64,000 bases of DNA from Lama guanicoe (Eukaryota). How positions within the stretch are numbered: position 1 is the first letter of the stretch; every line of letters begins with the position of its first letter. Below the pieces are notes generated by a model, which saw nothing but the letters and a program-made list of their open reading frames with translations, had not been told where the DNA came from and did no database searches. This document shows positions 8,319 through 32,279 of the stretch, piece by piece. Both the position numbers and the translations under genes were made by a program. The DNA lies in NCBI GenBank assembly GCA_013239625.1, contig MU056756.1, positions 310,001 through 374,000 of the forward strand, read 5' to 3'.

Positions 8319-8452
8319 ATGCACACGCTGTGGCGTCTGGCCTCTCTCTCTTGCAATGACTGCGACCCTCCCTCCGAACGCGCGTCTCCCCGGGTGCTGA
8401 GAAGCCTCCTGCATTCGGGCGCTGCAGGCAGCACAGCCAGAGTCTTGCCTCG
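8319..8452 (+). other. candidate alternative first exon (3' part), ending at donor TCG|GTAAGT
   Basis: Donor GTAAGT at 8453-8458. ATG 8319 opens a frame (MHTLWRLASLSCNDCDPPSERASPRVLRSLLHSGAAGSTARVLP, phase 2) that runs to the donor. Weak Kozak context; peptide not recognised. Confidence 0.3.
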
Positions 8453-10572
8453 GTAAGTCCAGGGTGACTGTCTCCGACTTTTCCCACCTTGGCTGTGTGG
8501 CTGCTGGTGCGGTGGCATCAGGCGGGCGACCAGGAGCGATTAGCACCCAGCTGGTCCCGGGAGCTGCCTGCCCTCGGCACTTTGCACCATGTTTCCCCGT
8601 CCTCCCTCCCGGCGTAGGTGGCTCTGCCTTTACGAGTGAAATACTCATCCCTCCATAGACACGGTAGCGGCAGCTCAGTTGCCGTGAGGATCTGGGGGAG
8701 AGCCGGCACGGCAGGCTAGAGCCGCACGGCTGTAATTCTGAGCAGACAAGTTCAGTCCCCAGTTAGCCCTGCTCCAGCCTCGCTGAATGCCGGCGCGGTT
8801 TGCACTGCAAGAACTCTTCTGGCTTGCTCTCCCCTGATTAGAGCAGAGATGCAGCAGCTGCTGCTGCTTCAGCGTTCCTCTGGGAATGAGGAAATCCAGG
8901 GACCCGCAGCTACTAAAGCCTGGCTCGTACGTGCCAGCCGTGGAGAGCAAAGCCTGTGAGGCGAGCATCCTTTGTGGTGCCTGGTGCAGCCAGAGACCCA
9001 CTCCTCCCGCAGCTGCATCGGATCGGAGGGCAGAAAAGGGAGAGGACGCTTTACGGAGGTGCTGGGAAGCCCTGCCGAGGGCTTATGCCGTGAAAGCCGA
9101 GAGCCCCTCGGAAGCAGGAGGTTTCAGGGTTTAGTGCCGCCAAGCAGCTGTCCTCTGCTGTCAGAGGTGACGGTGCCGGAGGGCGGAGGGAATTGCTGAG
9201 ACTGGAGGCGAAGCCGGCTTCAGAGCCACACGCTTTGTCGAGGGTCCCTGCGAGCCCGGGTCTCAGCTCAGCCCGTGCTCGGGGGTTGTGGAAGGGGAGG
9301 GGCAGGGTGGCCGCGCCTGGCGTGCACAGAGCAGGGAGAGGAGCTGTTCCTCAGGGTGTTTCTTCCTGGGCTGCTTGCTCTGCCACGCTGACGTGTTTTT
9401 TTTTTTTTTTTGCTTTTCCTTGTGCAAAACCATGCACTCCCCTCATCAGCAGTGGGCAGCCCCTGTCTAATGAGAGGGTGTTGATGTTAGAGTTATCATG
9501 CACTCAGGCATGCTGGTAACTGGTCTTACAAGTTCCTGGTACAAATGACCAAAATGCCTTCTCTGTGGAGTTACCCTCCTTACAGAACTGAGCAAGTCCA
9601 ATGAGACGCAGTTAGTGGTTTGCCCATATTTAGGTGAATATGGACTGTTTCATTCATAATTTTGTCCCCAGAGCTCAGGTGTGTTTCCAGGCAGAGGCTC
9701 CGAGTCACAGTGGAATATTTCATGGCCTGTGGTTTGTTCAGGAAGGGGAAGAGTCAGTGCCACTTGCCTGGACTGGTGAAGCACACTTTTCACCCAGCAA
9801 CAAGTGTTGGCCCACGATCCCTTACACTGGTGTCACTCATCCGTATGGCGGTCCAGCACGGAGCGGCAGGGCCCCCAGAGAGCAGCTAGGAGGTGGGAGT
9901 CTTGGTGGGAGTCGGGCCGCAAATGCAGAGTTTGATTCAGACCAACTGCAAGTGTGGGAGGTTGGGGCCACGGTGCGGGCAGATGCCCCCCTGAGAAGCA
10001 GGTGACATCTGACTGAGTTTAATTCTCAGCCACAGGTGCAGCTCTGATTCAATCAGAAGCACTGGCATGTCAGGACTGTCGCGTATTTTTTTTTTTACCA
10101 ACTCATTTCAATCTATTTGTGGCTCAAACAAAAATGAATAACCCGAAAATAAGGATGTATAGTAACACTGCTCAAATTGGAAAACTCTAACAGCAAGAGG
10201 TCCCCCCAGTTCTCTAAACATGACAGGCACCAGCTCTCCCACAGAACTGGAAATGCCCTCGGGGGCCGGGTGCGTTCGGCACCGGTAACTTCAGAGCAGC
10301 TTCCGTTTCCTAAGGCAGCATCACCTTTATTTCCGTGCTATCTAATTTGATACCTTTCTTCCTCTAAAACGAGCAGGCCTTTGCAGAATCAGACCAGACT
10401 GACGTGCTCTAAACAATACAGTGTCAGCGCAGGCTGAATGGGGGCTCTCAACACGCAGGGCGGATACAAATATTCCAGTGAGCTCTGCTGGTTCCGTGCG
10501 ACGTTTTGAGAGTGTTTCCCCCCTCCTTGAGTCCACTGCAGTGGCATTGGGGCTGGTCAGGAAGAAAGTGGC

Positions 10573-10710
10573 CACACACACTCACACACCCCTGCCCCAT
10601 CACACACACACACACACACAGATATCCACCCCATCACACACACTCACCTGCCCCATCTCACATACACACCCCTGCCCCATCTCACACACATCTGCCCCAT
10701 CACCCCCACC
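10573..10710. repeat. compound (CA)n / CTGCCCCATC(T)CACAC repeat
   Basis: CA runs interleaved with about 5 copies of (CTG)CCCCATC. Confidence 0.85.
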
Positions 10711-13700
10711 ACTCCGAGGGTCCCTCTGAGGATGGCAGAGGCCGAGGGCATGCAGCGTGGGCCCCATCGTGGGAGGTGCGGAAGGGCGTTTACAGGGCGC
10801 TGAGCGCCTGCAGCTTCCTTGGCATGTGGGTCTTGAAATGGGACCAGACGCCCCCGTGCAGTGTGTGTTTCTAACCCGGCGCACAACACGTGCATGGTAT
10901 TTCTGGTAAACACGCCCCCGCACACTAATTGTGACTTCCTTGGTTCCCTCTCTCCATCTAAGCATGAAGTTCCTCTCCAGGCGCCTGTGCACAGGAGCCC
11001 ACGTTCACGAGGCTTGTGGCTAAATTCTGACTCACTCAGTTTTTCCAGAGAATCAGCGTTGCCAGAAATTTGATCACTGGGTCATCATTTTATTCATGGT
11101 GGTTTCAGGAGAATGACCGGTAGTAAAATGAGCAGTCTTCCCTGACTGACATCGGGCGAAAGTCATCCCACTTCTACTCAGAGAACAGTTACCGTGAAAC
11201 TGCTCTCCTGTGTGCGCGTGCTTGTTAAAAAGGCGCCGTGTTCAGCAGGGCCCGAAGGTGGTGGATTTAGGTGGGAACCCTCCGTTTCAGTGATTTCACA
11301 GTGTTTGGTCTGCGTGTGGTGGGTCGGGGTGGAACTGCTGGAAAGTGAGCTCCTGACCTTGCAGGGGTTTCCTGCTGAGGGCGGAGTGCTCTGTGGAGGC
11401 CCCCGTCTGCTCCCGGGGGCGGGAGATGCTGAGTTCTCTTCAGGTGATCTCTCGCGACACTTCTGAGGTCCTTACAGCCTCTGGTCTGCGCCTCTGCTTC
11501 TGCCACCTAAGTATGCGGCTGTTGAGAGACAGAGCATCGCAACGATTAAGGCCCCCGAGGTTCATCGACGACTCCAGAGAGCTTCCCGGGCTGCTGGGCT
11601 CTGCAGCGGGCACTTGCCTCCAGGGTCACTCGCCCTCCCAGTCCCTTCCCAAGATGCCCCTCTGGGACCTCAGTGCGGCTGTCACGCAGGGACCACTCGT
11701 GCAGGGTCGGAGGACAAGGGCCCCACCCCACCCGCACCCTCCTTGTCCTCAGGCTGTGCACCTGGCACCTGCGGTCCCCACAGCTGGGAAGGCGGGGCTT
11801 GACTGGTCCAGAGCACTTTCCTGAGTGGGGAGGAAGATGACCGACACCAACCAGGTCCCCACTGGACCCAGGTGAGCTCTGCCCCACCCCACGTTCAGAA
11901 CACCTGCAAGGCCAGGGATTTCCTTTCCTCGGGACCCCCAGCTTCCAGGTGAGGAGCAGCACCCATTCTGTCACACCCAGGCCCTCCTGCTCCCAGCCCT
12001 GCCCCGGCCTTTCCTCTGGTTTGGTGGCTAAGCTGGGCTGTCGCGTCTCCCTCCTCATTGTTAGAGCCCATTTAAGGAAGAGTGGGCACCTCTGACCTGG
12101 GCCTCTCCCTGCCCAGTTCTAGGTGTGTGTGTGACCACGCGATCACACGCACCACCAGTCACCAGCCACCTGTCCCCTGTCTGCAGTCCAGACCCAGCCC
12201 TCCCAGTGCTTCCTTTCAAGTCCTGTGGTGATGGAGGTGGTGGTGGGACCCTCCTGTCCTGTGGTGATGCAGGAGGAGGGGTGAGTGGTCCTCAGGAGGG
12301 AGGGATGGAAGAAGGAGGTGAGTGGTCTCCAGTCGCATTTGCTAAGGTGGTTTTCTGGAAGCCCAGAGCCCAGGAACCAGAAGAGGTGGAGGAGCCTGCT
12401 GCCCGGGAAAGAGGGTGCGGTACAGAGCAGGTCCTGCTGGGAGGGGGGCTCGTCCACACTGGAGTCCCCCATCCCCTCCCCAAGCCTTTCAGGCCGACCC
12501 AGATAGTTGGGAGGATGCGAAACCGGAGGCAAAGCCGTGGACTTGGACCCGTGTGCTGGTGCTGGTTTGCAGCGAGCATGCTGGGTGCCCGTCCTTCGCC
12601 CACCAGGGGCGTCCAGTCCCTGGTGTGAAGACAGGACCACGCGTGTGCATCGACTTGTCATGTGTGAACGTGGTGGTTAACATGCCGCTGCGTCTCTGTA
12701 AATAGAATCCGGGAACGATGAGCAGTTACTCCGTCATCGGGGCTCCTGTGTGCCTGGTGCTGGCCAAAGGCGTGGCCCGCATGTCGCTTTGGTTTTTACA
12801 ATGAGATGACGTGGGTTTGGGGGAGACAGGTTCCAGGGTGGTGCCGGCGCCCCAGGGCCGGCGGAGCCTGGATGCTCCCCCAGGGTCATGAAGCAGGAGG
12901 GGAGGGAGGGACTTCAGATCAAAGCGTGACGAAGGCATGTTTAGCTTTGGAACATGTTTTCCTCCTGGTGCGCGTTCCAGCGTTCTTCCCAAACCGTGAG
13001 GCTGCTTCCAGTTTCGGCAAATCTGAGAAGGTCGTGGCCCGTTTGCTCAGCCCTTTGCTCTCTGCCGCTTGCATCTAAGCTGAGCTATAAGCCAAGCCCT
13101 CCCCCCGGGCTCGTCTCGGCTGCTGCTGCCTTGCTCTGGGGGCAGGGAGCTTGTTCGAGGAGGTGGCTTCAGGGCTGCTGGGGAGAGGGGCTTTCCCTCC
13201 TCCAGCTGGCGCTGGGTCACTGGGCGGAGGGGCAGCACCCCAGGCAGCCCTCAACCTGAGGCCCGCAGGCAGCGCCGCGGGCCGAGGGGAACCGAGGCCG
13301 GGCCGGTCCTTCTGTGCCGAGTGGGGGGCCTGTGGCTCTCAGTCAGCTTCGAGGATGGCCTGTCCTCTGCATCCGTCCGATCAACGTGCAACGCAGAGCC
13401 CTCCTGGGAGGCGCGTGTCCTGGGCGCTCAGTGAAAACCGTCTCAGCGGCAATCTGTCCAGTGTTTATTCCTGTTCTGAACAGAAAGCCAACTTCAAAAG
13501 CGCAGCTTTCTTCGTTTTTTTTGTTTGTTTGTGTGGTTTTTAAATTCTTTCCTCCAGTCACAGACAGGAAGAATGGGGGGGTCAGCCTTGACAGCGTTCT
13601 CTCCCCTCAGCCAGCATTTGGGGTGAACGCGTGCATTTGCGCCCGCGGGGCTTTTCCTGTGGATGCCGGGATTCCGGGCTGTGACTGTTCCGACGGTGCC

Positions 13701-15079
13701 GCCCACCGAGGAGCTGCCCTGGGGCTGGAACCAGAGCCCGGCAGGGACCCTTTCAAGTCCCGCTGATGTGCTGACGGAAGCCTCTTACAACCAGAAAAGA
13801 CGCTCAGCAGACAGGGTATCGCAGATGGAGCTCACTGTCGGCGGCCGGTTCACGGGATGCGCGCAGCCGCGCTCCTGAGCGCAGGGCCGGGCCAGTCCTG
13901 GCTCCTGGGTTGGCCCAGCGATTTCCTGGGGCTGCAGCCCCCGCAGGGCAGCTGGGCGGTGGCGTTGGTGCTTCTGCCTGGTGCCAGCGTTCGTGTGACT
14001 GCACGGCGTCCTCTTCTAGAGGAGCCAGCCTGTGATCCGGGTCCCCCGATGCCCTTCTCACGTGGGCGAGAGGAACGCCCCCTGCTCGACTCGGCCCCTC
14101 TGCTGGTCCCACAGCGCTTGGCTTCAGGGGTTCAGGGCAGCGTCCCTGGGGACCCCCCCAAGTGCGGCCTGGCGGGAGCCCCGGCTGGCTGAGCTCTCCC
14201 TGGACCCGAGTCGGCGGAGCCTTTGCTCCTGGACGTCTGAGGGGTGGCAGCTGGACAGGTGTCCCTCGGGCTCTGCGCCCCGACGGAACCAAGCCCGTGC
14301 TGCCCCCATGTCTCCCCACCCCCCCCACCTCTTTTTCCACTTACTCCAGGTTCTGAGGCTCATCTCTCTTTAAAGCATTTGTGAAGGTTGCCCAACCCCC
14401 TCGGGCCGCCAGTGCCCACGAGCTCCAGGTGTGTGTGTGCCTGTGTGTCTTGTGTAGATTTGTTTCCTGAATTTAATTTTATTTAATTTATTTCTCATCT
14501 CTGTGTGTGTATATAAATGTATATCAGTGAAATGAATATCTTTAATCACCCACTTACTGAATCAAAGAAGGAATTCTTCAGAAAAGCCGTGTGCTTTCCT
14601 GATGAGGTCCTGGAAGCCAGGAGAACCTTGTGCACATGAGGGCGGCCCCGACCAGGCCTGGAGACGCGTCCTCTCCTTGGTGGGGGCCTCCAGGCCCGTC
14701 TGCTCAAAGCCCATGGACCAGCTCCCTGCTTGTGTCTGTTTTCCCACATTTGTGTCTAACGCACGTCTTAACGTGATCGACGCGACGCATTGTGTAGCTG
14801 CAGTTTGCCGGAAAAGTCAGTCTTTTAGAAACTGTCTTTCAGATTGTCAATAAATTTTTGTCTTTAAATTTCAAAAAAAAAAAACAAAAACCAAACGCAT
14901 GGGGTGGGGCAGCGAGCGAGTGTCCGCTCAGGGAGGGGAGGGCCGCCGCAGGGACACCTGGTGGCGGCCTCCTCTCTTCCCGCCTCTTCCCATTTCCGGC
15001 CTGGCCGTTGGAGGTTGTTGTTGAGTTCTGTTAAGAACACAGTTTCCGCCTGTTAACCCTTTCTAAAACAACTTCTCTA

Positions 15080-15420
15080 GTTTTTAATTGAACACAGCTG
15101 ACTTACTGTCGCGTCGTTTCCGTCCCGCCCGCTAGCTGTCCATCCCTGCAGCTCGTGGTCCTGTCATGGCGAGCGCCCCTTGACGCGTGGGCGCTTCGTG
15201 CCCTCAGGTGAACAATGCTCTTGGGGCCTTGGACACTGGGGTCCTCTCTGGTATTGTTCTTGGGGACGTGACACCTGCTTAACCCCCTGGCGTCCGAGCC
15301 CCTGGGGGCCGTCCCAGAGCCGCGAGCGTGTGTGCTGATCGTGTGTCTCGAACTTCACTCTGCTCCCCGTTACCAGCACAGCAGGTCTGACGGCCGTGCG
15401 CCCCCCACATGCTCGCTCCC
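15080..15420 (-). mobile_element. highly diverged, GC-shifted L1 3' fragment
   Basis: TTTTTAATTGAACACAGCTGACTTAC start resembles an antisense L1 3' end; later similarity is weak. Confidence 0.35.
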
Positions 15421-16859
15421 TTAGGGGAGAAGACGAGATTCCCCTCACACAGAGAGCTCTGGGCTCTGGCTTCACAGGTTAAGGTGCCCGGCGGGATAGA
15501 CGTTTGCTGGGATGACACTGCGTGGCGAGTGTGTGGAAGACGGTCCCGTGCCTCCCGTGGGCTGAGACGGTCCCAGCGGCACTGGCCATGTGCCTGCAGC
15601 CAGGTGCTGACTCAGGAGTCCTCCCTGCTGACAAAACCGTGACACTTTCCAAGGGAGAGAGAGTGTTGTTACTGTATGAACTCACCCACGGAGTTCCTTT
15701 GGGGCACATTATGTTTTTTAATGGTGCCCCACTGATCATCATTCCCTGCTGTCCTCTGCTCTGCTGTCATCAGCATCCTTGAGGAAAGGCGCTCACCTTC
15801 CTGAAGGAGGAGTTGACGCCGGCGGGCGTCGCTGTGCAGTGAGGCGACCCCCAGCTTCCAGGTCGGCTCTCCACCTTCCAAAACGCTTCTTGAATAGAAA
15901 CCCTACAGAAATATCTGAGATCATCTTCCCTCCTGGCTTTGGAGCCTATCAATTCACATCTCCTTTTAAAGTTTGAAAAAGTGTGAGCAAAAAATATATA
16001 AATAAAAGATGTAGCAAAAATAGCCAAATTAGCTTTATTGGATGGCATGGAGCTGGAACAAGAAGTCACTGGCGTGTCTTTCTCTTTAATGACCGTGGAG
16101 GGTACCAGACCTTTGTCTGTAGAAATTTCGAAGTTTAAATATTTGCATATCAGTGTTAAAAAAACCACGGACAGGTGTGTGCAACTCAGCAAAGAGTGGA
16201 CACCTGCCCACGTGCTTGGAACTTTTAAAAGTGACACAGCTGGCCCCAAAGAAATAGAGTATCTTCTTTCTCTGACTCGTATAAGGATATTTTTGTTTGT
16301 CTTCTGGTGAGAAAGTGGCAGGCCGTGGCACAGAAGTGTGCAGAAGACATGGGCTCCCACGTGGACAGCTCGGGGGTGTGGACCGTGGGGACCCTGGTCG
16401 CTGAGTGGTCCCAACCCACCTCCTGCTACCTGGCTCTGGTGCAGAAGCAGGGAATCCTGAGAGCTGGCACTCTTCACTCTGTCTTTTCTGCACTTTTTAC
16501 CTTCTGCTACGCCGTGCTGAGCCCAGTGTGTTCATCTCTGCTTTTTTCCCCATTCACCCTTGGGAGCGAGGCTGAGCACACGTGATGCGTGGTCAGGGTT
16601 CCCTGTTGCAGAGGCGCACAGTTCAGCTCTGAGCTGGTCCACGCTGGGCTCACAGTCTGCCCACAGTGTGTGTGTGGGAGTGAAGTGAGTGCAGGGGTGC
16701 AGGGAACCCCGCCATCCATCCAAGGCCCACCCTGCGCCTGCTCTGGCCTTTCCTCCCACCACGAGGGAGCCGGGCAGGGGCCGAGACCCATTGGTAGGAA
16801 AGAGGTGGAGCTGGGGTGTCTGATCTGGTGTTTGTGGAGACAGGGCCCGTGCGGCCGGA

Positions 16860-17270
16860 TCCCAGTCCCGCAGCCTCTGACGGCCTGCACCCCGGTGGCC
16901 AGGCTGAGGGCCGGGGCCGGAGGCTGGGAGTCCAAGGTCAGGGTCTCTGGGGGGCCCTCCTGAGGCTCGGGGGGTCTGTTCCAGGCCGACTTCCCTGCTT
17001 TGCTGGCATTGTTGGCTTCCCTGGAGATCAGATGCACCACCCCAGTCTCTTCCTTCCTCCTCACCTCTCCTGCATGGTGTCTGCGTCCAGACTTCCTCCC
17101 TTTATAAAGACACCAGTCCTCTTGGGTTTGGGGCCCACCTGACTGGAGTGTGACCTCATCTTAACTGATCACACCTGCAACGGCCTATCTCCAAATAAGG
17201 TCACATCAGAGGGGCTGGGGTCAGGGCCTCAGCACATGAACTTGGCGGGGACACAGCTCAGCCCGTAACA
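16860..17270 (-). mobile_element. MLT1C-like (MaLR) solo LTR
   Basis: TTTATAAAGACACCAGTC...GGGCCCACC...TGACCTCATCTTAACTGATCACACCTGCAACGGCCTATCTCCAAATAAGGTCACAT...GGGGACACAGCTCAGCCCGTAACA. Confidence 0.85.
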
Positions 17271-18152
17271 CGCGGTAGGAACTGGTCTCAGGGTGCAGCT
17301 GTGGGGTTACCTCCATGGTTTGGGGAGCCGGTGGTAGGGGTGGGGTGAGGGCCTCAGCTTGTAAGCATCACCTTCATGATCCTAGCTGTCCCTGAGATAC
17401 TGCACTTTTAGCCCAAGATCGCTGGCCCCAGATTCAGTTCTCGGCTCCCTGTGGACTGGGTTTACAGTGCTGGGTAAGTGCGTCCCTGTCGCAGGTCTCC
17501 ACGATTCCTCTGTGGAATAACCATGACTGTCACGCTGACCCGCATGTTCACGAGGCTTGGGGCAGGGTGTACTCTCAGGATTTTTTGAACTGACAGTCGC
17601 CACACAGCATTTATGGGGAAATCTGCCAGAACCCCACATCTGAGTATTTTACTAAAAATGGTCTCGTGAAACCTTTAAGATATTTCTGTTGCCCAGCTGT
17701 CCCCGGGGAGAGGAGCTGTCCCCACCCCTAGCTGTGGCACTCAGTCACCACGGTGCCATCAGCCTGTCTGGCTGCCCCCTTCCACAGGGGGGAGCTCCTT
17801 TTGGGGGCAGCCCTGGGCGTCCACGGTCTCTGCTCTGTCCTTCAGTTTGCTGGCCCCCCACCTGCGGACATACTCCTGAACCCAGAGGGGTCCTCGGGCG
17901 GCATTCTTTGTGGCTGTTTCTTGGCCTGGACTGTGCTCTTGAAGGTCAAGTCCAGGTGAGGTTGGATCCAGCAGGGTCCTTGGGCTGGTTCCCCCCTGAA
18001 CTTTGAAATGGGAATAATCCTGTACACACCCCCCCACCACCAAGTCCCAGCTCCCTCTGCTGCTGGACCCCGGAGGACTCTCTCCTTGTTCAGAACGTCT
18101 GTGCAGCTAGAATGATATTAATAATGAAGCAGGAACAGCAGCTGGAGCCATC

Positions 18153-19092
18153 CTTTTTAAAGCTAATAGACTGTTTTTAAGAGCAGCTTCAGGTTTATGG
18201 AAGGATTGAGCAGCAAGGCAGACTCCCCACCGGCCTCCCCCCCACGTGCAGCTCCTTCTGGGTTAGCGTCTTGCGTCGGTGCTGCTCCCGTTACGCCTGA
18301 TGAATCCACGTTGGGGTTTCACTATTGATCAAAGTCCGTGGTTGACGTGGGGTCACTCTTGGTGTCGCACATTCTGTGGGTTTGGACAGACGTATTAGGA
18401 CATGTATCCACCAGGATAGGATCTTACTTAGCTTCACTGCCCCAAACGCTCTGTGCTCTGTTCACCCCCTTCCCGCAGCCCCTGGCACCCCTGATCTGTT
18501 ACTGCCTCCGCAGTTTGCCTCTTCCAGAAGGTCCTAGAGTTGGAGTCACGGTGAGCAGCCTTCTCAGATGGGCTTCTTTCACTGAATCATATGCAGCTAA
18601 GGTTCCTCCGTATCTTTTCATGGCCGGTAGCTCATTTCTTTTTAGCCGAATAATATTCTGCTGTCTGGATGCGCCAAGGTTGTATTCATTTACCTGCTGA
18701 AGGACATCTTATTTGCTTCCAGGGTTTGGAAATTATGAATAGAACTGCTCTAAAAATTTGAGTGCATGTTTTTGTGTGGCCCTAAGTTTCCGCTCATTCG
18801 GGTAAATACCAAGGAGTGTGATAGCTGGATTGTCTGGTAATCATCTGTTCAGCTTTTCCAGGACTCGCTGGGCTCTCTCCCAAAGTGGCTGTGTGTATGG
18901 CGTTGGCGTCTTTTCATGTGCGACTTGCCGTCTGTACACATTCTTTGGGGAGATGTCTGTTCAAGTCTTTTGCACGTTTTTAATTGAGTTGTTTATTTCT
19001 TATTGTTTTCAGAATTCTTTGTGTACCGTCTTTTAGCAGGCAGGTGTCTTACAAATACCTTTTCTCAGTCTGTGGCTTGTCTTTTCATTCTT
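18153..19092 (-). mobile_element. L1MC-type LINE-1 3' end
   Basis: Antisense L1 3'UTR/ORF2 end: CATTCTGTGGGTTTGGACA, GAAGGACATCTT, GGGTAAATACCAAGGAGTGTGATAGCTGGAT, GAGATGTCTGTTCAAGTCTTTTGC. Confidence 0.9.
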
Positions 19093-19326
19093 CAGTACTA
19101 TTTCAATATAAATACATAGATATATCTTTTTAAGTGGTAATGCTTTCATTTCTTGTGGATTATTCTGTTGAAACTATGTTTCAAAAACTTAAAAGTCAGG
19201 TTGGCAGCAGTTATGACTGCCTGTTAAACAGTCATGTGGCCATTGCGTGCTGCCTTACTCTGTCATCTGTGGCTTTTTCTGTATAAGTAGGTTCCCCACA
19301 AGGGTGTAGGCTCAAACAGTTGTGCG

Positions 19327-19700
19327 TTTATTTCATGAACATTTACTAACTGTGTATTGCAGGTAGGGACGCTCCTAGGTTCTGGAGACACAGAGACAAT
19401 TACAGTATGATTCCTATGCTGAGTGAGGTTGTGATCCAGCTGGGAAGATGGTCCTAGACATAAATGGTGTCACTACATGGCAAGCGAGAAAGCTTCCCGA
19501 GAAGCCGTGGACACAGTGCCACGGGGACCTTGGTGGTGAAGCTGGTTTACTCTGGGTTTGAAGGATCAGTGACCGCTTCTCGGAGGGAGCAGCTTTTGAT
19601 CGGACTTTGAAGTGCAGCTGGGTTTTTATGTTGGAATTGGAGGAAGTCATTTCAAGCTGAGAGATGGTGGGCAGGTGTCAGAGCGGCCAGGAGGAGGTAA
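19327..19700 (-). mobile_element. L2 LINE 3' fragment
   Basis: TTTCATGAACATTTACTAAC...CTAGGTTCTGGAGACACAGAG resembles an antisense L2 terminus. Confidence 0.6.
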
Positions 19701-20204
19701 GTGACTGTTGACAAGCCCTCGAGTGCCCCGGTCTGACCTCACCTTCGCGTGGTCGGCACGGGAATGTTGTCAGGGCAGAGACGGTGGTGCTGGAGCCAGA
19801 TCCTGTGGAGAACGTGTGTTCCGGACACGCGTGCAGGGGTGGCCCGCAGGCTCTTGCCGGGGCTGTGCTGGGACGGATCGTCTGTGGACTTCCGCGTTAG
19901 AACTTTCTCGCGGCTCTGTATCCCACTGAACACCAAGCTTGCCGTCAGGCACACGGCGGGCAGGTCGCAGCCTCTGGACTGTGTGAGGCAGGCAGACGCT
20001 GGTCCGGGGTGCAGGGGAGTGGTCCTTCCTCCGGGGCTGGTCTCCTCCCTCCTGGTAGAGCTCGGGGCCGTGGGCAAGGTGTGTGTCCTGAAGGTAACTC
20101 GTCACACCTAGGGCATCGCCCTCTGCCCTTGTCTGGAGCAGAGTCAGGTCAGGAGTGAGGAAGTCCGTTACCAAGGAAGTAGGGAGGGGAGGCCAGGCCC
20201 AGCA

Positions 20205-20225
20205 GGCGCTGTCCTTGGTGCTGAA
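20205..20225 (-). promoter_or_regulatory. RE1/NRSE (REST binding site)
   Basis: Reverse complement TTCAGCACCAAGGACAGCGCC versus canonical TTCAGCACCACGGACAGCGCC: 20/21 match, with the mismatch in the variable spacer. Confidence 0.85.
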
Positions 20226-20884
20226 CACGTGATCGCAGCTCCACGGAGGCCGTGGACGCGGGTGCCCGTGCCTCCAGGCCGTTTAGGAGCTGTAGACCCT
20301 CATATTACCAGGTTAAAAGCAGCCCGCAAGTGGTACGTCCTGCTGGGTTCGCCCACTTACGTGGTGCTCTGAGGAAGCCTCCTGTTCATTCGCTTGTACT
20401 GGAAGTGGATTGTGTTAAATGCTGCTTTAAGGGAGTGAAACACTGCCTGTGATCCTGAATTCTGAATACCTAGCTAGAGAATGTGTTCAGGAAATGGAGT
20501 GCCGTGGACAGCTTGGCCGTCTAACAGGATAAAGCTGCGTGTATATTACTTCATTTGCACACACAGGTGTCGTTCAGTATCTCGGACTTTAAAATAAGGC
20601 TTTATTCAGGAGATGATTACAAAGTCTAATTATATGTGCATTAATATGTTGTTCCACTTTTTTAATCAGTTGGATAGTAACGTTTAGACCTGCTGCATTT
20701 CTTAATGTTAGTTCCTGAAATAATGGTGACAGTAACGACCAGGCTAGTAACACTCACAGCAGTGTCCACCTCCTAGACTGACAGTCAGGCTGAAACGTTG
20801 GTCTGCGCGCACTGCTCACACGGTGAAAGCTCAGCAGCCATGCTTAGCCGCTGCTGTGTTACTACATTTCTGATTAATTATGAG

Positions 20885-20897
20885 GTAAACAGGAAGT
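20885..20897 (+). promoter_or_regulatory. FOX:ETS composite motif
   Basis: GTAAACAGGAAGT: forkhead GTAAACA overlapping ETS CAGGAAGT. Confidence 0.45.
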
Positions 20898-23559
20898 ATT
20901 TAGGAGAAATGTATCTACAGTGTGTTTCTTTTCTTCCTGGTTCCATTCCGTTCACGCATGTTGGTTCTCTCCTAGTGCAGGTTGCCCACTGCACAAGGGA
21001 CTTGGTAAAACTGAAGACACCATCACCTGTTCTGAACTTCGTGTCACCCGCAGGGTCAGAGAGAGGAAGGGTGTCCAGCACAATGTTCTACCTCTGCAGC
21101 CGCGAATGGCTCCTGGGCTGAGGCTGGTCTCTCCCTGGTCTTTTTAAGCCATAATCAGGATGACAGGGAGTGAATGTCCCATAGGCTGACTCAGAAGGAG
21201 AGGCTCCCAAAGGAAGGAACATGTGGGACCTTCTCTCGGCTCTGGTGAGGAGGGTGAGGCCCCCTGCAGGCAGAAGCCCAAGGCCCCTTCCTCTCCTCGG
21301 ATGGCGCCTGCAGGTGACGTCACATCTTCCTGCTGCTTTTTATTTTACTCTCTTGGAGATAGAACTCAAGCAGTAGGTTGAGAAGCACACCAGAAGTATG
21401 TTCTGTGAATAAACACAAAACAATTTCATGGACTTTTTGCAAAAAACAAAAACATTTTTCAAACTTATTTTTTTCTTTTGACTCTTTTTTGCCTTCACAT
21501 TTCTACATTCTCTTTGTTTTTTAGAACACACTCTATTTGGAGGGCAGTAGTCTAGATCTGTTAAGGGTGGGCCAGCAAACCTGGGGTGCCAGTGGAGGAA
21601 ATATTCTATCTACACTGAGGGATGCTGTGGCTCTCAGAGGCAGGCTGATAACATACTCATGGACAATTAAACTCAAAAGGAGAAGCACGTGCCCCTGGAA
21701 CGTACTTGCCAAATAATCCACATTTGGCACACGCCGGGCTGGGCACAGTGGTGGCTCCAAGCTGTGTCCATCTGTCTCCATCCGTGAGTCGCCTTCTAGA
21801 GAAGGACTGAAACGGCTTATTTGAGGACTGCTGGGTAGCCAGGGGTATCCATCACGCAAGAGGAGTATATCCACGCTTTCCTTTTTGTACGATTTTACCT
21901 AGATTAAAGAACCCGGTAGGGACAAAATGCCACTTCTTGGAGATCATCAGTGGTGACTGATTTGATTTGGGAAAAGCAGAATTCAAGGTCGGCTGTTTCT
22001 GAAACCATTTAAAATCAAGGCAGGGTGGAATTTAGGTATTATTTCCCAGATGTATTCATTTAAAACTTTAAAAATAAAACTTCTCTTTAAAAGGGTATGT
22101 TATGGGCTTATAAGTAAATTATATGGAAATATTAAAATGCATGTTGAAACTCCTGAAGAGGAGGAGGGTGAATGTTGGCCACAGCTGGTTACTTAGCTTT
22201 GAGACTTGATTCCAGGTTGAGTCAAGGCAGCAGGAAAAGTGGTCAGAAGGGGGAGGAGAAGGGTGAATTCTGAATGGCATTTTCCACTCAGGGTCACAGG
22301 GGACGCTGGGAGACGTGGACCCCAGCCCTCCTCCATCCGCTCACACCGGTGCCCTCCACCCACCCGGAGACCCGGCCGCTGCTCTGCGGGTGGCGGTGGT
22401 TCTCCATCAGCCCCTTTGGGGAGATCGGGAGAGCAGTCACCTTCTTTATTTCTGATTCTTCCTCACTTGATTTTAGCAAATTCCAGGTATGAGTGGGGAT
22501 TTTGAGGTCTTTTTTGACCTTTTATGGAATTTAGGTTTGTATTGACTTCACTACCCAAATTTACACTCTGGATACTTTAAATTGAGCTCATTCATTCCGT
22601 AAAGTGTACATATATTAATGTTTTATGAGTATTTTAAGTATGAATTTGAAATGGCCCTTTTCCTCATAATTATGCCAACTGGCGTCGTGAATCCCTGAGA
22701 ATCAGGTCTTAGTGGTTGACTGAACTGGGACAGTTTATGTGACGTTCATTAGTCTTTTGTTGGGGCGCACGTTTCTAGAGTGGGCCACTGAAGGGAGAAT
22801 CACGCACAAGGACCTGTGCACCGCTCAGCGCTGGCACCGAGTTCAGAAGCTGGAAGAAGTCAGAGCTATGGGTGTGCCTTAATGAAAAAAGGTCTTTTTG
22901 CACCACAATGAATTTTTTTTTCCTAAAATAGAAAGTGACTCACTACCCACGTTGGTGATAAGGGAGTGCGCTCTTGGCAAAACGCAAAATCCTAAGCTCG
23001 GAGGCCTCTCTTCCCAGTCTCACGGGGCATGAGTTTAACATACGGTGAAGGCATCTTACTTAGCTGTAAAATAAAGCAACGTTTCTACTTCATGAAAGTC
23101 TCCCTAGAATCAGGAAGAACGGAAACATCCATTACAAATCTGTGTTTTCCAGCACGTGCTGTGTGGGTCTGACCGATCATGCCGTTGATATGAGGCTGTT
23201 TGAAGGACCAAGGTGCCCCCCCACCCCAGATGGCGCCTCGAGTGCCTCCTGCTCCGTGTGCCCTGGGGTCTGGGCCCACGGTCTCCATCTTTGCGCTCTC
23301 CACTCCTCTCTTTCCACATGCAGACAGACGTGCGGAGCCCCTGCCTGCCTGTCCTCTGAAAAGACTGTCTCATCACCCTCTCCTTCCCCAGTTGAGGGCG
23401 CAGCCCAGACGCCGCCCCCACACCTGCTCCTCAGAGGCCATGGGCAGCGTCCAACCCTGTGGCACCGGGATGCCAGGCTGGACTCCAGACTGTCACGGGC
23501 TACTCCAGTAGCTGTCAGTCAGCTGTGCGCAGGAGCCCTTCCTCTCTCGTTCCAGCTGC

Positions 23560-24200
23560 AGGTGATTCTCAGGGTTCTCTCCTCCAGCTCTTCCACCTGA
23601 CCCTCTTTCTCTAAATGTCACCCTAGAGACTTTGACCCCCAGAGGGGAACGTGATCTTTGACTGTCTCCAGGGTCAGAGCCTCGACCCAAATTCCACTGA
23701 ACATTCACCTTGATGACCCGCGGTGACGGAGACACAGCATATCCTGAACCGGGTCTGTGGGGTCCCTCCTGCCCTCTGTGCTCCACTTGGCATGGCCCCC
23801 TCAGATACGCCAGCTCTGTGACCTGGTCAGGCCTCTGCTCTGGTGCTGCTGCCCGGAGTCTGCCCCTGTGTGGCCCTGCTCTCCTGGCTGCCCCTCGGTC
23901 TGAGCCTCTCCCCTCCCCTGCCTATGCCCTCTGGTCCTCCCCTTCTCCCAGGACCAAGACCAGCTTTGCCCGCCAGGGGTCAGTCCCCCCTCCCAGGCCT
24001 GTCTTCTAAGCACGTGGGGATGCTCACTTCCGTGGTCCGGTGTCTCTTCCCAGAGACACTCACAGCCGCTGCATCAGACGAGCTCCGAGCTGCCTGCGTC
24101 TGCCGGACACACTTGTCCGTGGTGCCCTCCAGGCCTCTTGGTCACCGGTGCTGGGCAGTCATCTGCACTTGGCTGGCGCTTTGCTGTCACTGGCTTACAT
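23560..24200 (+). mobile_element. diverged L2 fragment
   Basis: Pyrimidine-rich L2-like phrases (CCAAATTCCACTGAACATTCACCTTGATGACCC...CAGCATATCC); strongly diverged. Confidence 0.4.
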
Positions 24201-24286
24201 GCTGCTATTCTCCAACAAGCAGCCCGGAGTTTCACTTGCCTGGGAGCCTGTGTGCGGGATCTTCTGGAGGGAGGGGCCGGATGGAC

Positions 24287-24693
24287 TGTCTGGGCAGCGT
24301 GGGGCACAGGGCAGAACCAGTGGTGGGGGGGTGTCTGTACACAGAGTGAGGCAGACAGAGAAGGGGGAGAGAAAGTTTAAGGGGCTTATTTTAAAGAGTT
24401 GTGGAGCTGGCAGTTGTGAACTTTGCAGGGCAGACTGACTGGAGACCCAGGGAGGACTAATGCTTCAGCTGGGGTCCAAAGACAGGCGAGGTTGAGGCAG
24501 GATTCCCTCTGTCGAGGCCTTCAACTGATGGGGCGAGGCCCACCCATTCCATGGAGGGCCGTCTGCTCTATTTAGGGCCCACCAATTTGAGCGCAGTGCC
24601 CATGGATATATACCTTCGCAGACACCACTTGGCATCTGCCCAACTATCCGGTGCCATGGCCTCGCCGAGCTGACAGGTACTGTAACTGCCCCA
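24287..24693 (-). mobile_element. MLT2 (ERVL) solo LTR
   Basis: CTGGAGACCCAGGGAGG...AGGCCTTCAACTGATGGGGCGAGGCCCACCCATTCCATGGAGGG...CTGCTCTATT, the antisense MLT2 signature. Confidence 0.8.
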
Positions 24694-25715
24694 GACAGGC
24701 ACTTGCTCTGTTTCTTGGATATTCCTGCCTGAGTTAGCTCAGGGCCTGTTCTGCCTGCAGAGATGCTGCCTTGGCAGCTGGAGGTCGTCAGAGAGCGGGC
24801 TGCAGTCGGCTCCTCTTCCTCCACTGGTGCTAGTGGATAGGCCTGAGCTCTGAGGAGGGACAAGTCGGGGGGCAGGCTGGTCTCCCCTCCCAGGGGCCCA
24901 TGTGGGGAGACGGTCCTGATGGGGGCAGGCTCCCAGCGGTGGAAACTCAGTGCCAGCCAGGGGGCTGAGACTTCCGACAGGATTATAGCCTTGCACAGCT
25001 GAAGAATGAATAATTTCAGGCATTTTAACCTTAATTATGCTGTAAAAATGCTTTCTGCCCAGTCGTCTACCAGGGTTTGAAGGCTGTCGGTGGATCCAGG
25101 GTGAATCCCAGGGACAGAGAACTGGGTACTGATGGTGAAACCAAATGCTTCCGGTGCAGAGAACGAATAATTAAGTTTGTTTTTCCGGGGAAAAAATCCT
25201 TCAAGTGCTTTTCTCTGTTTTCTGCTGAGGCTTAAATTTTTCAGTGCTCTGACAATAACCCGTCCTCCAGTATGCCTTGTTTCTATGGAGACACCAATGA
25301 GCTGCAACTGGGATGCTCTGGTTCATCACAATGCAAGACTCCTCTCGGGGTTTATCCAGAGCCTTCAAACATACGCTCCGTTTTGTGTTTACTGAGTGTC
25401 GGGTGAGCACGTGGGCGGCCGGCGTGGCCGTGTCTGCCCACGGGTTCTCTGCGTGGAGGGGCAGCTTCTGTGCTCCCAGGGGCTGCGGACTCGAGGGCCC
25501 AGAGGGTCACCCCACCCGACGCTCTGAGCCTGCCGACGACTCTTTCTTCTGTGTCCGTTTTCATTCTTGTTTTGTGTGGGCCTGTTTTGTCGTGAGTGGG
25601 AAGGGCCGACCGAAGAGGAACAGAGCAGAACTGCTGTCCAGACGCGACTGCAGTGGGTCCCAGGGGCCGGTCTGCCCCGACCTGGAACCGTCTTCCGTTG
25701 GGTATCTGTGGAGTG

Positions 25716-26048
25716 CGTTCTTAGTCCGCTTGCCGGGGCCGCTTAACAGAAACACACCGGCCTGGGGGCCACGAGCACCAGACACGCACTTCTCTTCATT
25801 CCGGGGCTGGACGTTCAGGGTCACAGTGCCAGCAGATCCGGTGTCTGTTGAGGCTCCTTCCTGGTTCACAGATGGCGTCTTCTCTTGCTGTCCTCGTGTG
25901 GGGAAGGGGCTGGGGCTCTGTCATCAGGGCACTGACCCCACTTACGAGGGCTCCACTCCCACCACCTCATCACCCCCCAGTACCATCACATTGGGGTTAC
26001 GGTTCAACAGTCGGATTTGCGGGGGACACAGACATTCAGTCTGCAGTG
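25716..26048 (-). mobile_element. MLT1A (MaLR) solo LTR
   Basis: GTGCCAGCAGATCCGGTGTCTGTTGAGG...CCTGGTTCACAGATGGCGTCTTCTC...TACCATCACATTGGGG...GGGGGACACAGACATTCAGTC. Confidence 0.85.
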
Positions 26049-26399
26049 ATAACCCTGGTGTCCATTCAGCAGAGCAATGGGATCCTCTCTTCTTTTCTTG
26101 ACATTTTTAAATCATGGGCACAAAAGCACAGGAATGGAGGCTATGACAATTTGGACCAAATCTAGGAAGGAACAGAATCTTGCCAAAAAGTCCCAGAATG
26201 AGGAGGAGGATCACACGCTTCCTCTGTCCTGCCCCTTGGTGTGGACTCTCTGATAGGTGGGCCGTCTCTAAGCAGTGGACGCCACCCCCTGCCCACACCT
26301 GTGCTGGCCCCCCGACGCGATAGCATCTGCCAGGCTCTCCATCAAGGCTGGGTGGGGACTCTTCCCGGTTCCTTCTGTCGGCACAGGGGGTAGTGAATA

Positions 26400-26580
26400 G
26401 AAGACAGCTTGGAGCTTAATTCTTGGTTACATCCGTGAGCCTCCTGTGCCTTAACTATAATAATCGGATATGAATGCCCACCTTTCGAGATGGCCGTGCA
26501 GCTCAGAAGCCAGCAGCAACACCAGTGAACACAGCCTGGCACAGAGTGGGTGTGCAGTGAGCTGTCATCACCGTTGCCAT
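26400..26580 (+). mobile_element. MIR 3' fragment
   Basis: GTGAGCCTCC...ACAGCCTGGCACAGAGTGGGTGTGCAGTGAG resembles the MIR 3' end. Confidence 0.45.
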
Positions 26581-27139
26581 CACCGCCCTTCTCAGGACTC
26601 AGGCGAGACGGCCCCAAGCTGAGGAAGGAGGCTTTGCTCTTACGTAATCTTCTCTTTCAACCTCAGAAAAACTGCTTTAACTTTAGGATCCAAAGTAAAT
26701 GGGAAATAAAGCAGCTGCACATTAGTAAGAGTTCACTCATTTTCCAAAACAGATCTTGAGCATGAGACGCCTAAGAAAAGACCCTCGAGTAAATGTCTCT
26801 TGCCAAAGAGCGCGCTCCAGCTGCACGTAACAGGATGCCTAACAGTTTTAGGAAACTTGGCAAATTTTGAAAAAATAAAAGTTTATTTTTCAGCAGTCAA
26901 GGATGTTTAATGAAGAGGAGACTTAAAGTAAACCTTTTAAAAAACAGTTTTGTTTAGAAACGATGTCGCCCTGAGTCTTTTTTCAAAGTACAAGAAGGCA
27001 AACAGGTGCAAAACACCGTAGGCACGTCTGGGTTGGAACTGGACCCGCGTCCTGGCTCTGTTTGCTGTGGACCCTTCTTGGTTGTCACAAACCCAGAGAG
27101 ACTGATCATTTCCCAACTCCCGTCATAAGAAGCGCCTGA

Positions 27140-27270
27140 TCCCTGGTTAAAAGATGGAAAGGTCGTGAAGCCCGACTCACCTCCTCCACAGAAACTTGGA
27201 TTTGATGGGTCTAGGCTGGGGCTCAGAGATGCTGTGTTTAAAGTGCGTCTGGGTCCTACATGTCCCAGGG
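27140..27270. mobile_element. MER5-like hAT-Charlie fragment
   Basis: CAGAAACTTGGATTTGATGGGTCTAGGCTGGGGCTCAGAGATGCTGTGTTTAAAG resembles the MER5A core. Confidence 0.45.
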
Positions 27271-29429
27271 ACTCCAGGCAGCACTGAGTGGGGTGGTCAC
27301 AACACCGGCAGCCACGTCTTGGGAAGTGCCCTCCAGCAGAGCAAACCCTTGGCACTCTTGCTGGTTCTGGTCTGACAAGAACCCCTCGGTGAGTGACAGC
27401 ACTGGGGGACAGAGCTCTGGCGCTTGGAAACCAGCTCTCACGTGTGGAGCATTCTAGTCGTGCCTTTCCCCGGAACACACGCTCCCACCACTGAAACTCT
27501 GCCCTACCCCAACTTGTTTCCAAAAATATCCTTTAAATTTGGAAAGGAGCCACCTCAGATGCAAGGTAGGAAGCAAGAAGCTGGCCAGGTGCCCATGGGC
27601 CTCGGAGCCCGAGTGTGGACGACGCTGGTGGCTTTGCACTCTTGGTTACAGTGGCTCCCACGGGGAGGCGTGAGACAGCCTCGTGGGCAAACCTGAGAGT
27701 CCTGCACGGAATTCCTGGGACACAGCCGTGCTGTTTGGGAAACTGGATGAGGCCCTTTCTTCATTTCCCCCTGCTTTGGACGCTTCAGAAATCATCCATT
27801 TTAATGGGTTTCTGTTGAGTCCGCACCCTTCTGGTGGGCGGGGTGTGCATTTCAGCAGCGGAGCGCTTCAGGGCACTCCCCTGGGGCTCATGCGCGTTTG
27901 GAAAACACTGGTATTCAGGCATGTTAGAGAGATTCTTTGAAGGCAAAATGTGAAAAAAGAAACAGACCCGAAGCTCTCAGCACCGGTAACATTTCAGGCT
28001 CTTACGTGCCTTGGAATTTCACCGGATTTGCTCTTTCTTTTAGAGCCTGTACGAACTGCTATGAATCCTTCCCAGGTGCTTCTGGAAATTAATATTTTCT
28101 GTTAGCAGCTTGGCAAACTTCACAACTGAAAGAAAACAAGGAGCAATCTGTGTGCTCTGCAGAGATGCCATCGTGAGCAGTTGATGGTTTCCAAAACCGT
28201 TTGTCCGCTTCTGCGGGCCTGGGGTGCTCGGGGACAGGTTAGTGGCGCGGCTGGGAGCAGGTGCGGGGCCGATGTGGTCCGGCCCCACACCCTCAGCTGT
28301 GAGTGTCTTCACTCGGGGACTGTCCACCGGGTGGGGACGCGGGGGATAATGAGGCGGCTGTGGACGTGTGTCCATGTGGAATTTTGAAGCACGCTCCCCC
28401 TGGGTTTCCCACAGCAGTTAAGCCGGTAGCGTGAGTGGGGTCCGTTGGCTCACTCGCCAGAAGCAGCCTGACGTTTTGACGTTGACGATTCCTGTGTCTG
28501 TGTTCAGAAGCAGCATGGTCTTTGTGTTCACCCGACGTCAGGCATTCTGAAGATAATTCACTGACGCTCAGATAATTCCTTCTTAACGTGTGTAAACACA
28601 TGTTTAAGACCCTTGTTCAAGAAGAATGTATTGCTCTCACTGTCACAGGCTCTTGTGAAGAAGGGAAGGTGTGGCAGTCAGTCAACCGGCCTGTTTCAGA
28701 GGACACCCCTCAGGCAGCGGGTCTGACAGATGCAGAAAACGCCGCCAAGGTGGGCTCGGTGTCTCGGCTCCTGACCCCAGCCCCCTCCGCATGCGGGTGG
28801 GTCAGGAGGATGGAGTTAGGAAGGAAAGAAGAAAGAATTACATGTTCTAGAGAGACACTGAACTGGAAAAGTGATTTACATTTCCTACAGGTGATAGCAT
28901 TTAAAAGTCAATTTCTTAAAGCAACCCATTTGAACCAAAGCCTTTCAGTTGCTTTATAGCTGTCCACGTGAAAATTGCTTTAAAATTAAGCAAAACAAGC
29001 TACGTTTTATTTTGCCTGAGTCAGTTCCAGTGATTGGTGAGGGTCTTCCGCGAGGGAGCCGGGACGTCCCCGACCTGGGACGGCCTGTGGTGGGGGCACA
29101 GCACAGACGCTCAGTGAACCGATGTCATGAATCCACAGACGTGTGCACACTGACGGTGGGGCTACTGAATGTGTTGCCTCACAGGACTGGAAATGCAGCC
29201 GTTTGTCCACAGGTGCAGGCAGGAACCGAGGAACTCTGTGCTTCTGGACTTTCTGGATAACTGAGGGGGAAAGCCCTTCAATTATCAGGAAATCCCTGAG
29301 GGTGAATCCTGAAAGCTTTGCCTCCCCTTAAAGCCTCTTTAAAGGATTTTGACTGAAATGTAAAGTTAGTGACTTTCCAAGTGCTTTCTTGTTTATTAGG
29401 AAAGAAATGGGGGTTAGAAGCCAGTCTGG

Positions 29430-29803
29430 ATGGTCAGTGGAGTATTACTCAGCCGTGAAAAGGAAGGACACTCTGACACAGGCTGCAGCAGGGGGGAGCC
29501 TGGAGGACACTGTGCTCAGGAGGTGACCCAGGCACAGAAGGACAAAGCCTGCAGGACCCCACTTATGTGACATCCCTGGGGCCACCAGGCTTATAGAGAA
29601 GGAGGTCGACGGTGGGGCCAGGGCTGGGAGAGGGGTGGGAGTCAGCATTTACCAGAGGCAGAGGTTCACTTTGGGGTGATGAGAGACTTCTGCAGAGGGT
29701 GGTGGTGAGGGCTGCACAGGTGGAATGCGCTTAATGCCACTGAGCTGCACACCTAAAAATAGTGCAGAATAGGGAATTTTATGTTTATTTTACCACAAAT
29801 AAA
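29430..29803 (+). mobile_element. L1MB-type LINE-1 3' end
   Basis: GGAGTATTACTCAGCCGTGAAAAGGAAGG...CTTAATGCCACTGAGCTGCACACCTAAAAATAG...TTTTACCACAAATAAA. Confidence 0.9.
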
Positions 29804-30899
29804 GCAGCCAGCATGTCTCTTATCACAGAGGAACATTCAGTCCCATGGGGAATGCTCAAATAAAGAGAAAAGTCCTATTATGGAATAATACAGACTATAA
29901 AATACCTACTCTAAATCTCTTTGCATAGAAAATATCTGTATCTATATATATATATGTATCTGTCTGAAGTCACTCAGTGTGAGGAGTGCGCCCTCTGTGA
30001 GACCAGGTAGAGAGACCAAGTCAGATGAAAGACGCATGCCTTGAGTACAATTTCAGAGATGGTGAATCGTTTCCTTTAATTTGTTACGATTTGAAACTTT
30101 CGTAGACATGTGTTCTCCTGAGCTGAAAGCTGAAGATCTTAATTTGGTGTCTAAAATCTTCAAATCCTAGAGCTGACTTTCTGCAACTGGTTCGGAGGAG
30201 GCTAGTGGGGCGAGACAGGGAGGGGCGGTGGGCTGGCCTCTGGCTTCCCTCCTCCCCCGCCCCCTCCCAACCCCCCCCCAATCTCCTCCCCTCCCCCTCC
30301 CTCCTGCCAGAGCTCACAGTGAATCACAAAGCAGAGCCGCAGCAGCAAGGAAATGAAGGCCTCCGACCACTGGGGTGGGGGTGGGGCGTCCGCTGGGCCC
30401 TCAGCCCTGCTCTCCGTAGGATGGGAGGATGGGCGAACCCGGGGCCGCAGAAGGAGCCTCAGACGCTGAGTTCAGCCCTGGGAGGTGATGTCTTCACTCG
30501 GAAGGAGACACCCCGGGGCCACGAGGGCGGGAAGCCGCCTGGGGTCTCGGAGGAGACGCAGGGTGGGCAGGGCAGCCGCGCGGTGCCCCGGGTCCAGGCT
30601 GGGCTGGTTTGCATCCCCTCTGGTGGCGTTCGGAGACTTCCGGGGGGAGTGTCTCAAGCCCAAAACCCCAGCGACATTTTCCCCAGGAACATGCAGTTTC
30701 GGGGGGTGGCCGGTGCCTGGACACTTAGGAGGACGCACCTGCTGGGGGCGGGGCCCGGGCTCTGCACGCGGGAGGCACGAAAGGCCGTTTGGTGTGGCCT
30801 CTGGTGAGGGCGAGTCCTGAGTGAGTCCTCTGAGACTCATGTTCGTCCTTCTGGGGCCCCTCAGTTGTGGGGGGAAGCTGTCACCAGAAGCGGGTGGCA

Positions 30900-32234: not shown

Positions 32235-32279
32235 GAGGGCCCAGTGCCTCCGTGTAGAGGGCCCAGTGCCTCCGTGTAG
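32235..32279. repeat. exact 22-bp tandem duplication (GAGGGCCCAGTGCCTCCGTGTA x2)
   Basis: Copies at 32235-32256 and 32257-32278. Confidence 0.95.

What the first reader, a model, noticed from the sequence alone, without database searches (positions are those of the whole stretch)
20205..20231. Near-perfect RE1/NRSE (REST) silencer element
Seen: GGCGCTGTCCTTGGTGCTGAA, the reverse complement of TTCAGCACCAAGGACAGCGCC. Both half-sites are perfect with canonical 2-nt spacing, a CACGTG E-box follows immediately (20226-20231), and it is not in a recognisable repeat. A 20/21 match is far beyond chance in 64 kb. Knowledge: such sites bind REST/NRSF and repress neuronal or neuroendocrine genes, often from introns. 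Inference: the host or a neighbouring gene is a REST target. This is the best functional clue to the locus.
Basis: partly seen in the sequence, partly recalled or inferred. Interest (0 to 1): 0.7.

Follow-up and report, generated by a model that had tools for sequence, protein, structure and literature searches.

The report
REST silencer site in DLGAP2 intron
This is a textbook docking sequence for REST, the protein that keeps nerve-cell genes off in other tissues, lying deep in an intron of the synapse gene DLGAP2 of a camelid; it is real and likely bound, but it is an ordinary example of a well-known switch in a gene region already known to bind REST in humans.

Summary
The motif is real: 20205-20225 (minus strand) matches 20 of 21 RE1 consensus bases, with about 1e-5 such matches expected in the window. 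The genome holds 542 exact RE1 cores against 5 in a reversed control, so the site is genuine but one of hundreds. The window lies wholly in the 148-kb second intron of the long form of DLGAP2 (SAPAP2), a postsynaptic scaffold gene, next to ERICH1, in an alpaca-type camelid. Two further strong RE1s lie in the same intron, in the same orientation. The site is single-copy, intact in three DNA runs, and unchanged in a relative about 4.6% diverged (not significant, P about 0.37). Published human ChIP-seq tables list REST peaks in the syntenic region, one in 11 of 15 non-neuronal cell types at nearly the same relative position; base-level orthology was not tested. The adjacent E-box looks coincidental (3 of 542 cores have one nearby; about 3.7 expected). 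Verdict: an ordinary intronic RE1, likely REST-bound, probably helping keep DLGAP2 off outside neurons; the target promoter is unknown. The scan noted similar RE1s before in other genes (UNC5A, KChIP1, HCN4), none in DLGAP2.

The parts
20205..20225 (-). Canonical RE1/NRSE, 20 of 21 consensus bases, both half-sites perfect, 2-base spacer; the strongest RE1 in the 464 kb scanned
   Evidence: (31.1 of 31.8 possible bits on a home-made matrix; above all 30 comparison core sites)
20226..20231 (.). CACGTG E-box abutting the RE1's 5' end; probably coincidental
   Evidence: 47 copies in the window and 0 of 39 other RE1 loci with one within 100 bp; 3 of 542 cores with one 0-10 bp upstream
1..64000 (+). 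Part of intron 2 (148 kb; contig C8339 270,058-418,326) of the long DLGAP2 isoform; no canonical DLGAP2 exon lies in the window
   Evidence: exon map; no credible Pfam hit in 300 window ORFs
34770..34790 (+). Weaker RE1-like site (one mismatch in the 14-base core, poor tail); possible counterpart of a human/mouse-conserved REST peak, by position only
   Evidence: (17.5 bits; reversed control has 1 site above 17 bits)
61034..61104 (+). Exon-like segment (AG...GT, 71 nt) homologous to the alternative DLGAP2 N-terminus annotated in guinea pig and mouse lemur; here GTG stands where they have Met and the length would shift the frame into exon 3
   Evidence: (E 9e-7, 81% identity over 16 aa)

Best explanation
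The 21-mer is a canonical RE1/NRSE in intron 2 of the long DLGAP2 isoform, likely bound by REST in non-neuronal cells and progenitors, where it would help keep DLGAP2 switched off. Shown: the motif, its non-chance nature, its host gene and position (148 kb from exon 1a, 97 kb from exon 1b, 60 kb after exon 2, 88 kb before exon 3), and two more strong RE1s in the same intron. From established knowledge: REST's zinc fingers read RE1 and recruit Sin3/HDAC1-2 and CoREST, lowering histone acetylation also at non-promoter sites. Inferred: that this site is occupied, that it acts additively with its two sister sites on DLGAP2 promoters or intragenic enhancers, that repression lifts in neurons, and that it is the orthologue of the strong human peak at hg19 chr8:1,004,06x. 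The E-box is a bystander.
For: Motif and chance. Genome-wide excess: 29 vs 0 exact matches, 542 vs 5 cores, so about 99% of such cores are not chance. Host gene; neighbour ERICH1. Sister sites at C8339 286,919-286,939 and 406,618-406,638, same strand; a second exact core in 148 kb has P about 0.04 at the genome-wide density. Human REST peaks assigned to ERICH1-AS1, LOC286083 and DLGAP2 (PMC4055426 Table S2 rows), the one at chr8:1,004,06x in 11 of 15 non-neuronal cell types; its relative place in the intron is 0.416 against 0.406 for this site (human exon coordinates recalled). 234 of 235 top-confidence canonical RE1s were REST-bound in that study, and gene-body and multi-peak targets were expressed lower. 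Dlgap2 proposed as a REST target in rat neurons (PMC4069008). No change at the site in a 4.6% diverged relative.
Against: No binding or expression data for this species. The nearest known start is 97 kb away, and no paper found shows DLGAP2 rising when REST is removed. The conservation seen is not significant (P about 0.37 for 21 unchanged bases). Orthology to the human peak rests on proportional position with recalled coordinates; that peak is listed as not conserved in mouse ES cells, and the other two strong camelid sites (0.114, 0.921) match no listed human peak closely. RE1 turnover is high (15.3% of human ES peaks conserved in mouse), so a bound site need not be regulatory.
Confidence: 0.72

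Rival explanations
1. REST binds the site, but the binding has little or no effect on DLGAP2: a redundant or passive occupied site far from any promoter.
For: 97-148 kb from the two mapped first exons; high turnover of REST sites between species; the candidate human peak has no mouse peak; conservation in the related camelid is not significant.
Against: A near-maximal 21-mer is unlikely to persist without selection; three strong sites cluster in one intron of a neuronal gene; gene-body REST peaks go with low expression.
Confidence: 0.18
2. The site acts on something more local than the main DLGAP2 promoters: an internal alternative start or exon in intron 2, or a non-coding transcript of the ERICH1-AS1 type, giving isoform-selective silencing.
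For: A conserved exon-like segment lies 41 kb downstream in the same intron; databases annotate DLGAP2 isoforms that join exon 3 from other 5' sequence; the exon 1a CpG island faces ERICH1, recalled as broadly expressed, so it may not be fully silenced.
Against: No CpG island, exon or splice joint near the site; the exon-like segment has a splice acceptor, lacks the Met and would shift frame here; no Rfam family in 19,000-64,000.
Confidence: 0.06
3. RE1 and the abutting CACGTG form a composite switch in which a bHLH-ZIP factor (USF, MAX or MiT/TFE type) competes or cooperates with REST.
For: Exact adjacency has a naive chance of about 0.15% in this window; the E-box is unchanged in the related camelid.
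Against: Post hoc choice of motif; 0 of 39 other RE1 loci have CACGTG within 100 bp; 3 of 542 cores have one 0-10 bp upstream, about the 3.7 expected from the local density.
Confidence: 0.03
4. Chance match, assembly error, or a non-binding copy carried in by a transposable element.
For: About one in seven human RE1s overlap or flank LINE2 (PMC1557810); no repeat library could be run.
Against: Chance expectation about 1e-5; identical in three DNA runs; flanks single-copy; LINE2-derived RE1s mostly do bind REST.
Confidence: 0.01

Closest known systems
Canonical RE1/NRSE (cRE1) sites of REST target genes such as STMN2/SCG10, SCN2A, SYN1 (PMC2687797 passages; PMC1794552 supplement rows)
   Same: 21-bp asymmetric motif, both halves intact, canonical spacing, in a neuronal gene
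   Different: Lies 97-148 kb from the mapped first exons rather than near a promoter; binding not tested in this species
Intronic and clustered human RE1s (PMC1557810 passages: 29.4% intronic, clustering at 10-1000 kb, 101 genes with two or more)
   Same: Intronic; three strong sites 43 and 76 kb apart in one gene
   Different: Not a tandem pair within 100 bp; no sign of duplication or a transposon in the flanks
Human REST ChIP-seq peaks in ERICH1-AS1/DLGAP2, hg19 chr8:930.6k, 1,004.06k, 1,029.65k, 1,030.64k, 1,278.3k, 1,486.2k (PMC4055426 and PMC4499139 Table S2 rows)
   Same: Same syntenic region between ERICH1 and the DLGAP2 coding exons; the 1,004.06k peak falls at nearly the same relative place in the intron
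   Different: Those tables assign the peaks to ERICH1-AS1 rather than DLGAP2; base-level orthology not shown; the set of strong sites appears to differ between species
SAPAP2/Dlgap2 as a proposed REST target in rat hippocampal neurons after oxygen-glucose deprivation (PMC4069008)
   Same: Same gene, same proposed repressor
   Different: That paper is correlative and I could not see its Figure 7C, so which site it means is unknown

Membership tests
Canonical RE1/NRSE | 21-bp match to the RE1 consensus with intact left (TCAGCACC) and right (GGACAG) cores | tested here: met
Canonical RE1/NRSE | Canonical spacing between the half-sites | tested here: met
Canonical RE1/NRSE | High matrix score relative to other genomic RE1s | tested here: met
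   31.1 of 31.8 bits on a home-made matrix (7 columns from 30 genomic sites, 14 fixed); JASPAR matrix not available
Canonical RE1/NRSE | Not the non-binding ERV class I look-alike and not a repeat copy | tested here: inconclusive
   single-copy flanks; no repeat library, so an ancient element is not excluded
Canonical RE1/NRSE | Association with a neuronal gene | tested here: met
   intron 2 of DLGAP2
Canonical RE1/NRSE | Purifying selection on the motif across mammals | tested here: inconclusive
   unchanged in one 4.6% diverged relative, P about 0.37; no distant mammal genome available
Canonical RE1/NRSE | Bound by REST in vitro and in vivo | not testable with these tools
   only indirect: human peaks in the syntenic region
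Canonical RE1/NRSE | Confers REST-dependent repression | not testable with these tools
   no perturbation data found for DLGAP2
RE1 plus E-box composite element | Recurrent, enriched pairing of the two motifs | tested here: not met
   0 of 39 within 100 bp; 3 of 542 within 10 bp on the 5' side
Tandem or duplicated RE1 family | Second RE1 within 100 bp or shared flanking sequence with other RE1s | tested here: not met

The most novel reading that the evidence does not exclude
The three co-oriented RE1s of intron 2 form an isoform-selective silencer that acts on internal DLGAP2 starts or exons rather than on the CpG-island promoter shared head-to-head with ERICH1, letting REST silence the synaptic gene without touching its neighbour; the individual sites turn over between mammals while the cluster is kept.
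Probability: 0.1. Interest if true: 0.4.

Novelty: new member of a known kind. Interest (0 to 1): 0.1.

Why it matters
Little in itself: RE1s are among the best-characterised vertebrate cis-elements and this genome has over 500 exact cores. [quoted passage not shown] It would matter more if the intronic cluster proved isoform-selective or if the sites were shown to turn over with compensation.

Tried and rejected
Pfam scans of 300 of the window's 903 stop-free frames of 45 aa or more (the 150 first of 156 at 110 aa or more, and the 150 first of 308 at 70-109 aa) gave only two sub-threshold hits: no coding exon found that way; the host was found only by fetching 400 kb of flanks. Rfam on 19,000-64,000: 0 matches. 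E-box partnership rejected. Local duplication of the three RE1s rejected: no shared flanks. Human sequence of the site was sought in paper supplements: PMC1794552 lists no DLGAP2 or ERICH1 site, supplements of PMC1557810 could not be read, file 1 of PMC4499139 was not searched, and one paper asked for by a recalled id is not held; these unseen files may list the human motif. Searches for human exon coordinates gave none. No earlier scan note lies near this place. No structure or complex prediction was run: not relevant to a DNA motif.

Full report
Observation. The sequence GGCGCTGTCCTTGGTGCTGAA lies at 20205-20225 and is followed at once by CACGTG at 20226-20231. On the minus strand it matches all 19 fixed bases of the RE1 pattern TTCAGCACCNNGGACAGCGCC and is the only match in the window with up to 3 mismatches. 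Markov models of the window expect 1-3e-6 matches to the 19 bases and 3-8e-6 at 20/21 or better. The single departure from the recalled 21-base consensus is at position 11, a free column (A in 7 of 30 genomic core sites; the human STMN2 element is listed with the same AA in the supplement of PMC1794552). Three public DNA runs carry the site unchanged, each in one contig spanning the 1.5 kb laid; one may be the assembly's source. The 901 bases around it are single-copy and share nothing but the motif with 585 kb of fetched DNA, including 40 RE1 loci; an ancient repeat cannot be excluded without a repeat library.

How ordinary it is. The 2.05-Gb genome holds 29 exact matches to the 19-base pattern against 0 for the reversed control, and 542 exact 14-base cores against 5. 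About 1.7% of 64-kb windows would hold a core and 0.09% an exact 19-base match. The site is thus a real member of the REST site population, in its top tier: 31.1 of 31.8 possible bits on a home-made matrix, above all 30 comparison cores.

Host gene. Pfam found nothing credible in 300 of the window's longer frames. I fetched 200 kb on each side and scored exon candidates. The best is a DLGAP2 exon (best hit Camelus ferus, 91%), with GKAP-domain exons further along the contig; upstream on the other strand lies ERICH1, one exon 100% identical to the Vicugna pacos protein, so the genome is an alpaca-type camelid (inferred). On contig C8339 (+ strand): alternative first coding exons at 182,670 (in a CpG island facing ERICH1) and 232,958, exon 2 at about 270,003-270,057, exon 3 at about 418,327, exon 4 at about 547,213, exon 5 at about 557,646. 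The window (310,001-374,000) is wholly inside the 148-kb intron 2; the RE1 is 148 kb from exon 1a, 97 kb from exon 1b, 60 kb after exon 2 and 88 kb before exon 3. No CpG island or exon was found beside the site.

Sister sites. Two more strong RE1s lie in the same intron and orientation, at 286,919-286,939 (23.1 bits) and 406,618-406,638 (28.9 bits); in 464 kb, 4 sites exceed 20 bits, all in intron 2, against 0 in the reversed control. A second exact core in 148 kb has P about 0.04 at genome-wide density. Clustering of RE1s at 10-1000 kb and intronic location are described as common in human (PMC1557810, passages).

Conservation and human data. One run (X1) holds low-depth contigs of a relative with 36 substitutions and 6 indels in 917 interior bases; none falls in the RE1 or E-box, with changes at 20204 and 20233, but this is not significant (P about 0.37 for 21 bases). 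In published human ChIP-seq (PMC4055426, Table S2 rows for three gene names) REST peaks lie at hg19 chr8:930.6k (1 cell type), 1,004.06k (11 of 15 non-neuronal types; neurons have a different summit about 420 bp away), 1,029.65k (7) and 1,030.64k (2), filed under ERICH1-AS1, with others at 677.3k, 1,278.3k and 1,486.2k. With recalled human exon coordinates the 1,004.06k peak sits at 0.416 of intron 2 and the camelid site at 0.406. This suggests orthology but is not an alignment. Against: that peak is listed as not conserved in mouse ES cells, while 1,030.64k is (PMC4499139, Table S2 rows), and the two other strong camelid sites match no listed human peak closely. A weaker camelid site at window 34,770 (0.504) may correspond to the 1,030.64k peak (0.492).

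E-box. The window has 47 CACGTG, so exact adjacency has a naive chance of 0.15%, but the motif was picked after the fact. None of 39 other RE1 loci has CACGTG within 100 bp, and 3 of 542 cores, this one included, have it 0-10 bp upstream (3' side not searched genome-wide), about the 3.7 that the local density of 285 per 464 kb gives. I treat it as coincidental.

Mechanism. Shown: motif, non-chance status, host, cluster. From the literature: REST binds RE1 and recruits Sin3/CoREST with HDAC1/2, with histone deacetylation also at non-promoter sites (PMC2687797, passages); 234 of 235 top-confidence canonical RE1s were covered by REST peaks (PMC4055426, passage); genes with gene-body peaks or several peaks are expressed lower (section 10). 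Inferred: occupancy of this site outside neurons, additive repression of DLGAP2 with its sister sites, and release in neurons. Dlgap2 was proposed as a REST target in rat hippocampal neurons on correlative grounds (PMC4069008, passages and section 25; Figure 7C not seen). Three searches showed no paper with a direct test of REST on DLGAP2; subscription papers and unseen supplements may hold one. I give 0.9 to REST binding and 0.72 to the whole explanation; the main rival is passive or redundant binding (0.18).

Novelty and verdict. It works like, and by sequence is, a canonical intronic RE1; binding and repression are untested here. It is a new instance of a known kind in a region already known to bind REST in human cells. 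Earlier scan notes report the same kind of site in other genes and none here. Interest 0.1.

Noticed in passing
window 61034-61104 (+): Exon-like segment with acceptor and donor, homologous to the alternative DLGAP2 N-terminus annotated in guinea pig (P0059) and mouse lemur (P0025); here 71 nt, GTG in place of the Met codon, so it would shift the frame into exon 3 if spliced in.
   Followed up: partly
L028:6919-6939 and L034:2618-2638 (C8339 286,919 and 406,618, minus strand): Two further strong RE1s in DLGAP2 intron 2, same orientation as the finding; the first has a duplicated left half that also allows a 9-base-spacer reading. Two weaker sites lie at L033:9024 and 9605, 3-4 kb from the second.
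   Followed up: partly
window 34770-34790 (+) and 33736-33756 (-): A weak RE1-like pair about 1.03 kb apart, at the relative position of the human peak pair at hg19 chr8:1,029.65k and 1,030.64k (about 1.0 kb apart); may be coincidence, the second scores within the control range.
   Followed up: partly
L011-L018 (C8339 110-190 kb, ERICH1 and the shared CpG island): Human (13 cell types) and mouse have a strong REST peak in an ERICH1 intron, but no canonical RE1 with at most one core mismatch was found in this camelid stretch; possible site loss or a non-canonical site.
   Followed up: partly
L018:2001-4000 and L023:2928-2975: DLGAP2 has two alternative first coding exons here: one in a CpG island head-to-head with ERICH1, one 50 kb downstream; a further CpG island lies at L047:8501-9500, about 4 kb before exon 4.
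   Followed up: partly
window 47273-47542, 56003-56224, 32235-32279, 46035-46154: Tandem repeats: a perfect 148-bp unit in 1.8 copies, a 52-bp unit in 4.3 copies, a perfect 22-bp duplication and a CTC-rich tract.
   Followed up: no
window 50001-55000: Raised CpG observed/expected (0.8 or more in three 1-kb bins) at moderate GC, with a cluster of CACGTG at 50.0-52.8 kb; the whole window is CpG-rich for intron DNA.
   Followed up: no
window 20388: All three DNA runs read G where the window has A: a polymorphism or an assembly error 160 bp from the RE1.
   Followed up: no
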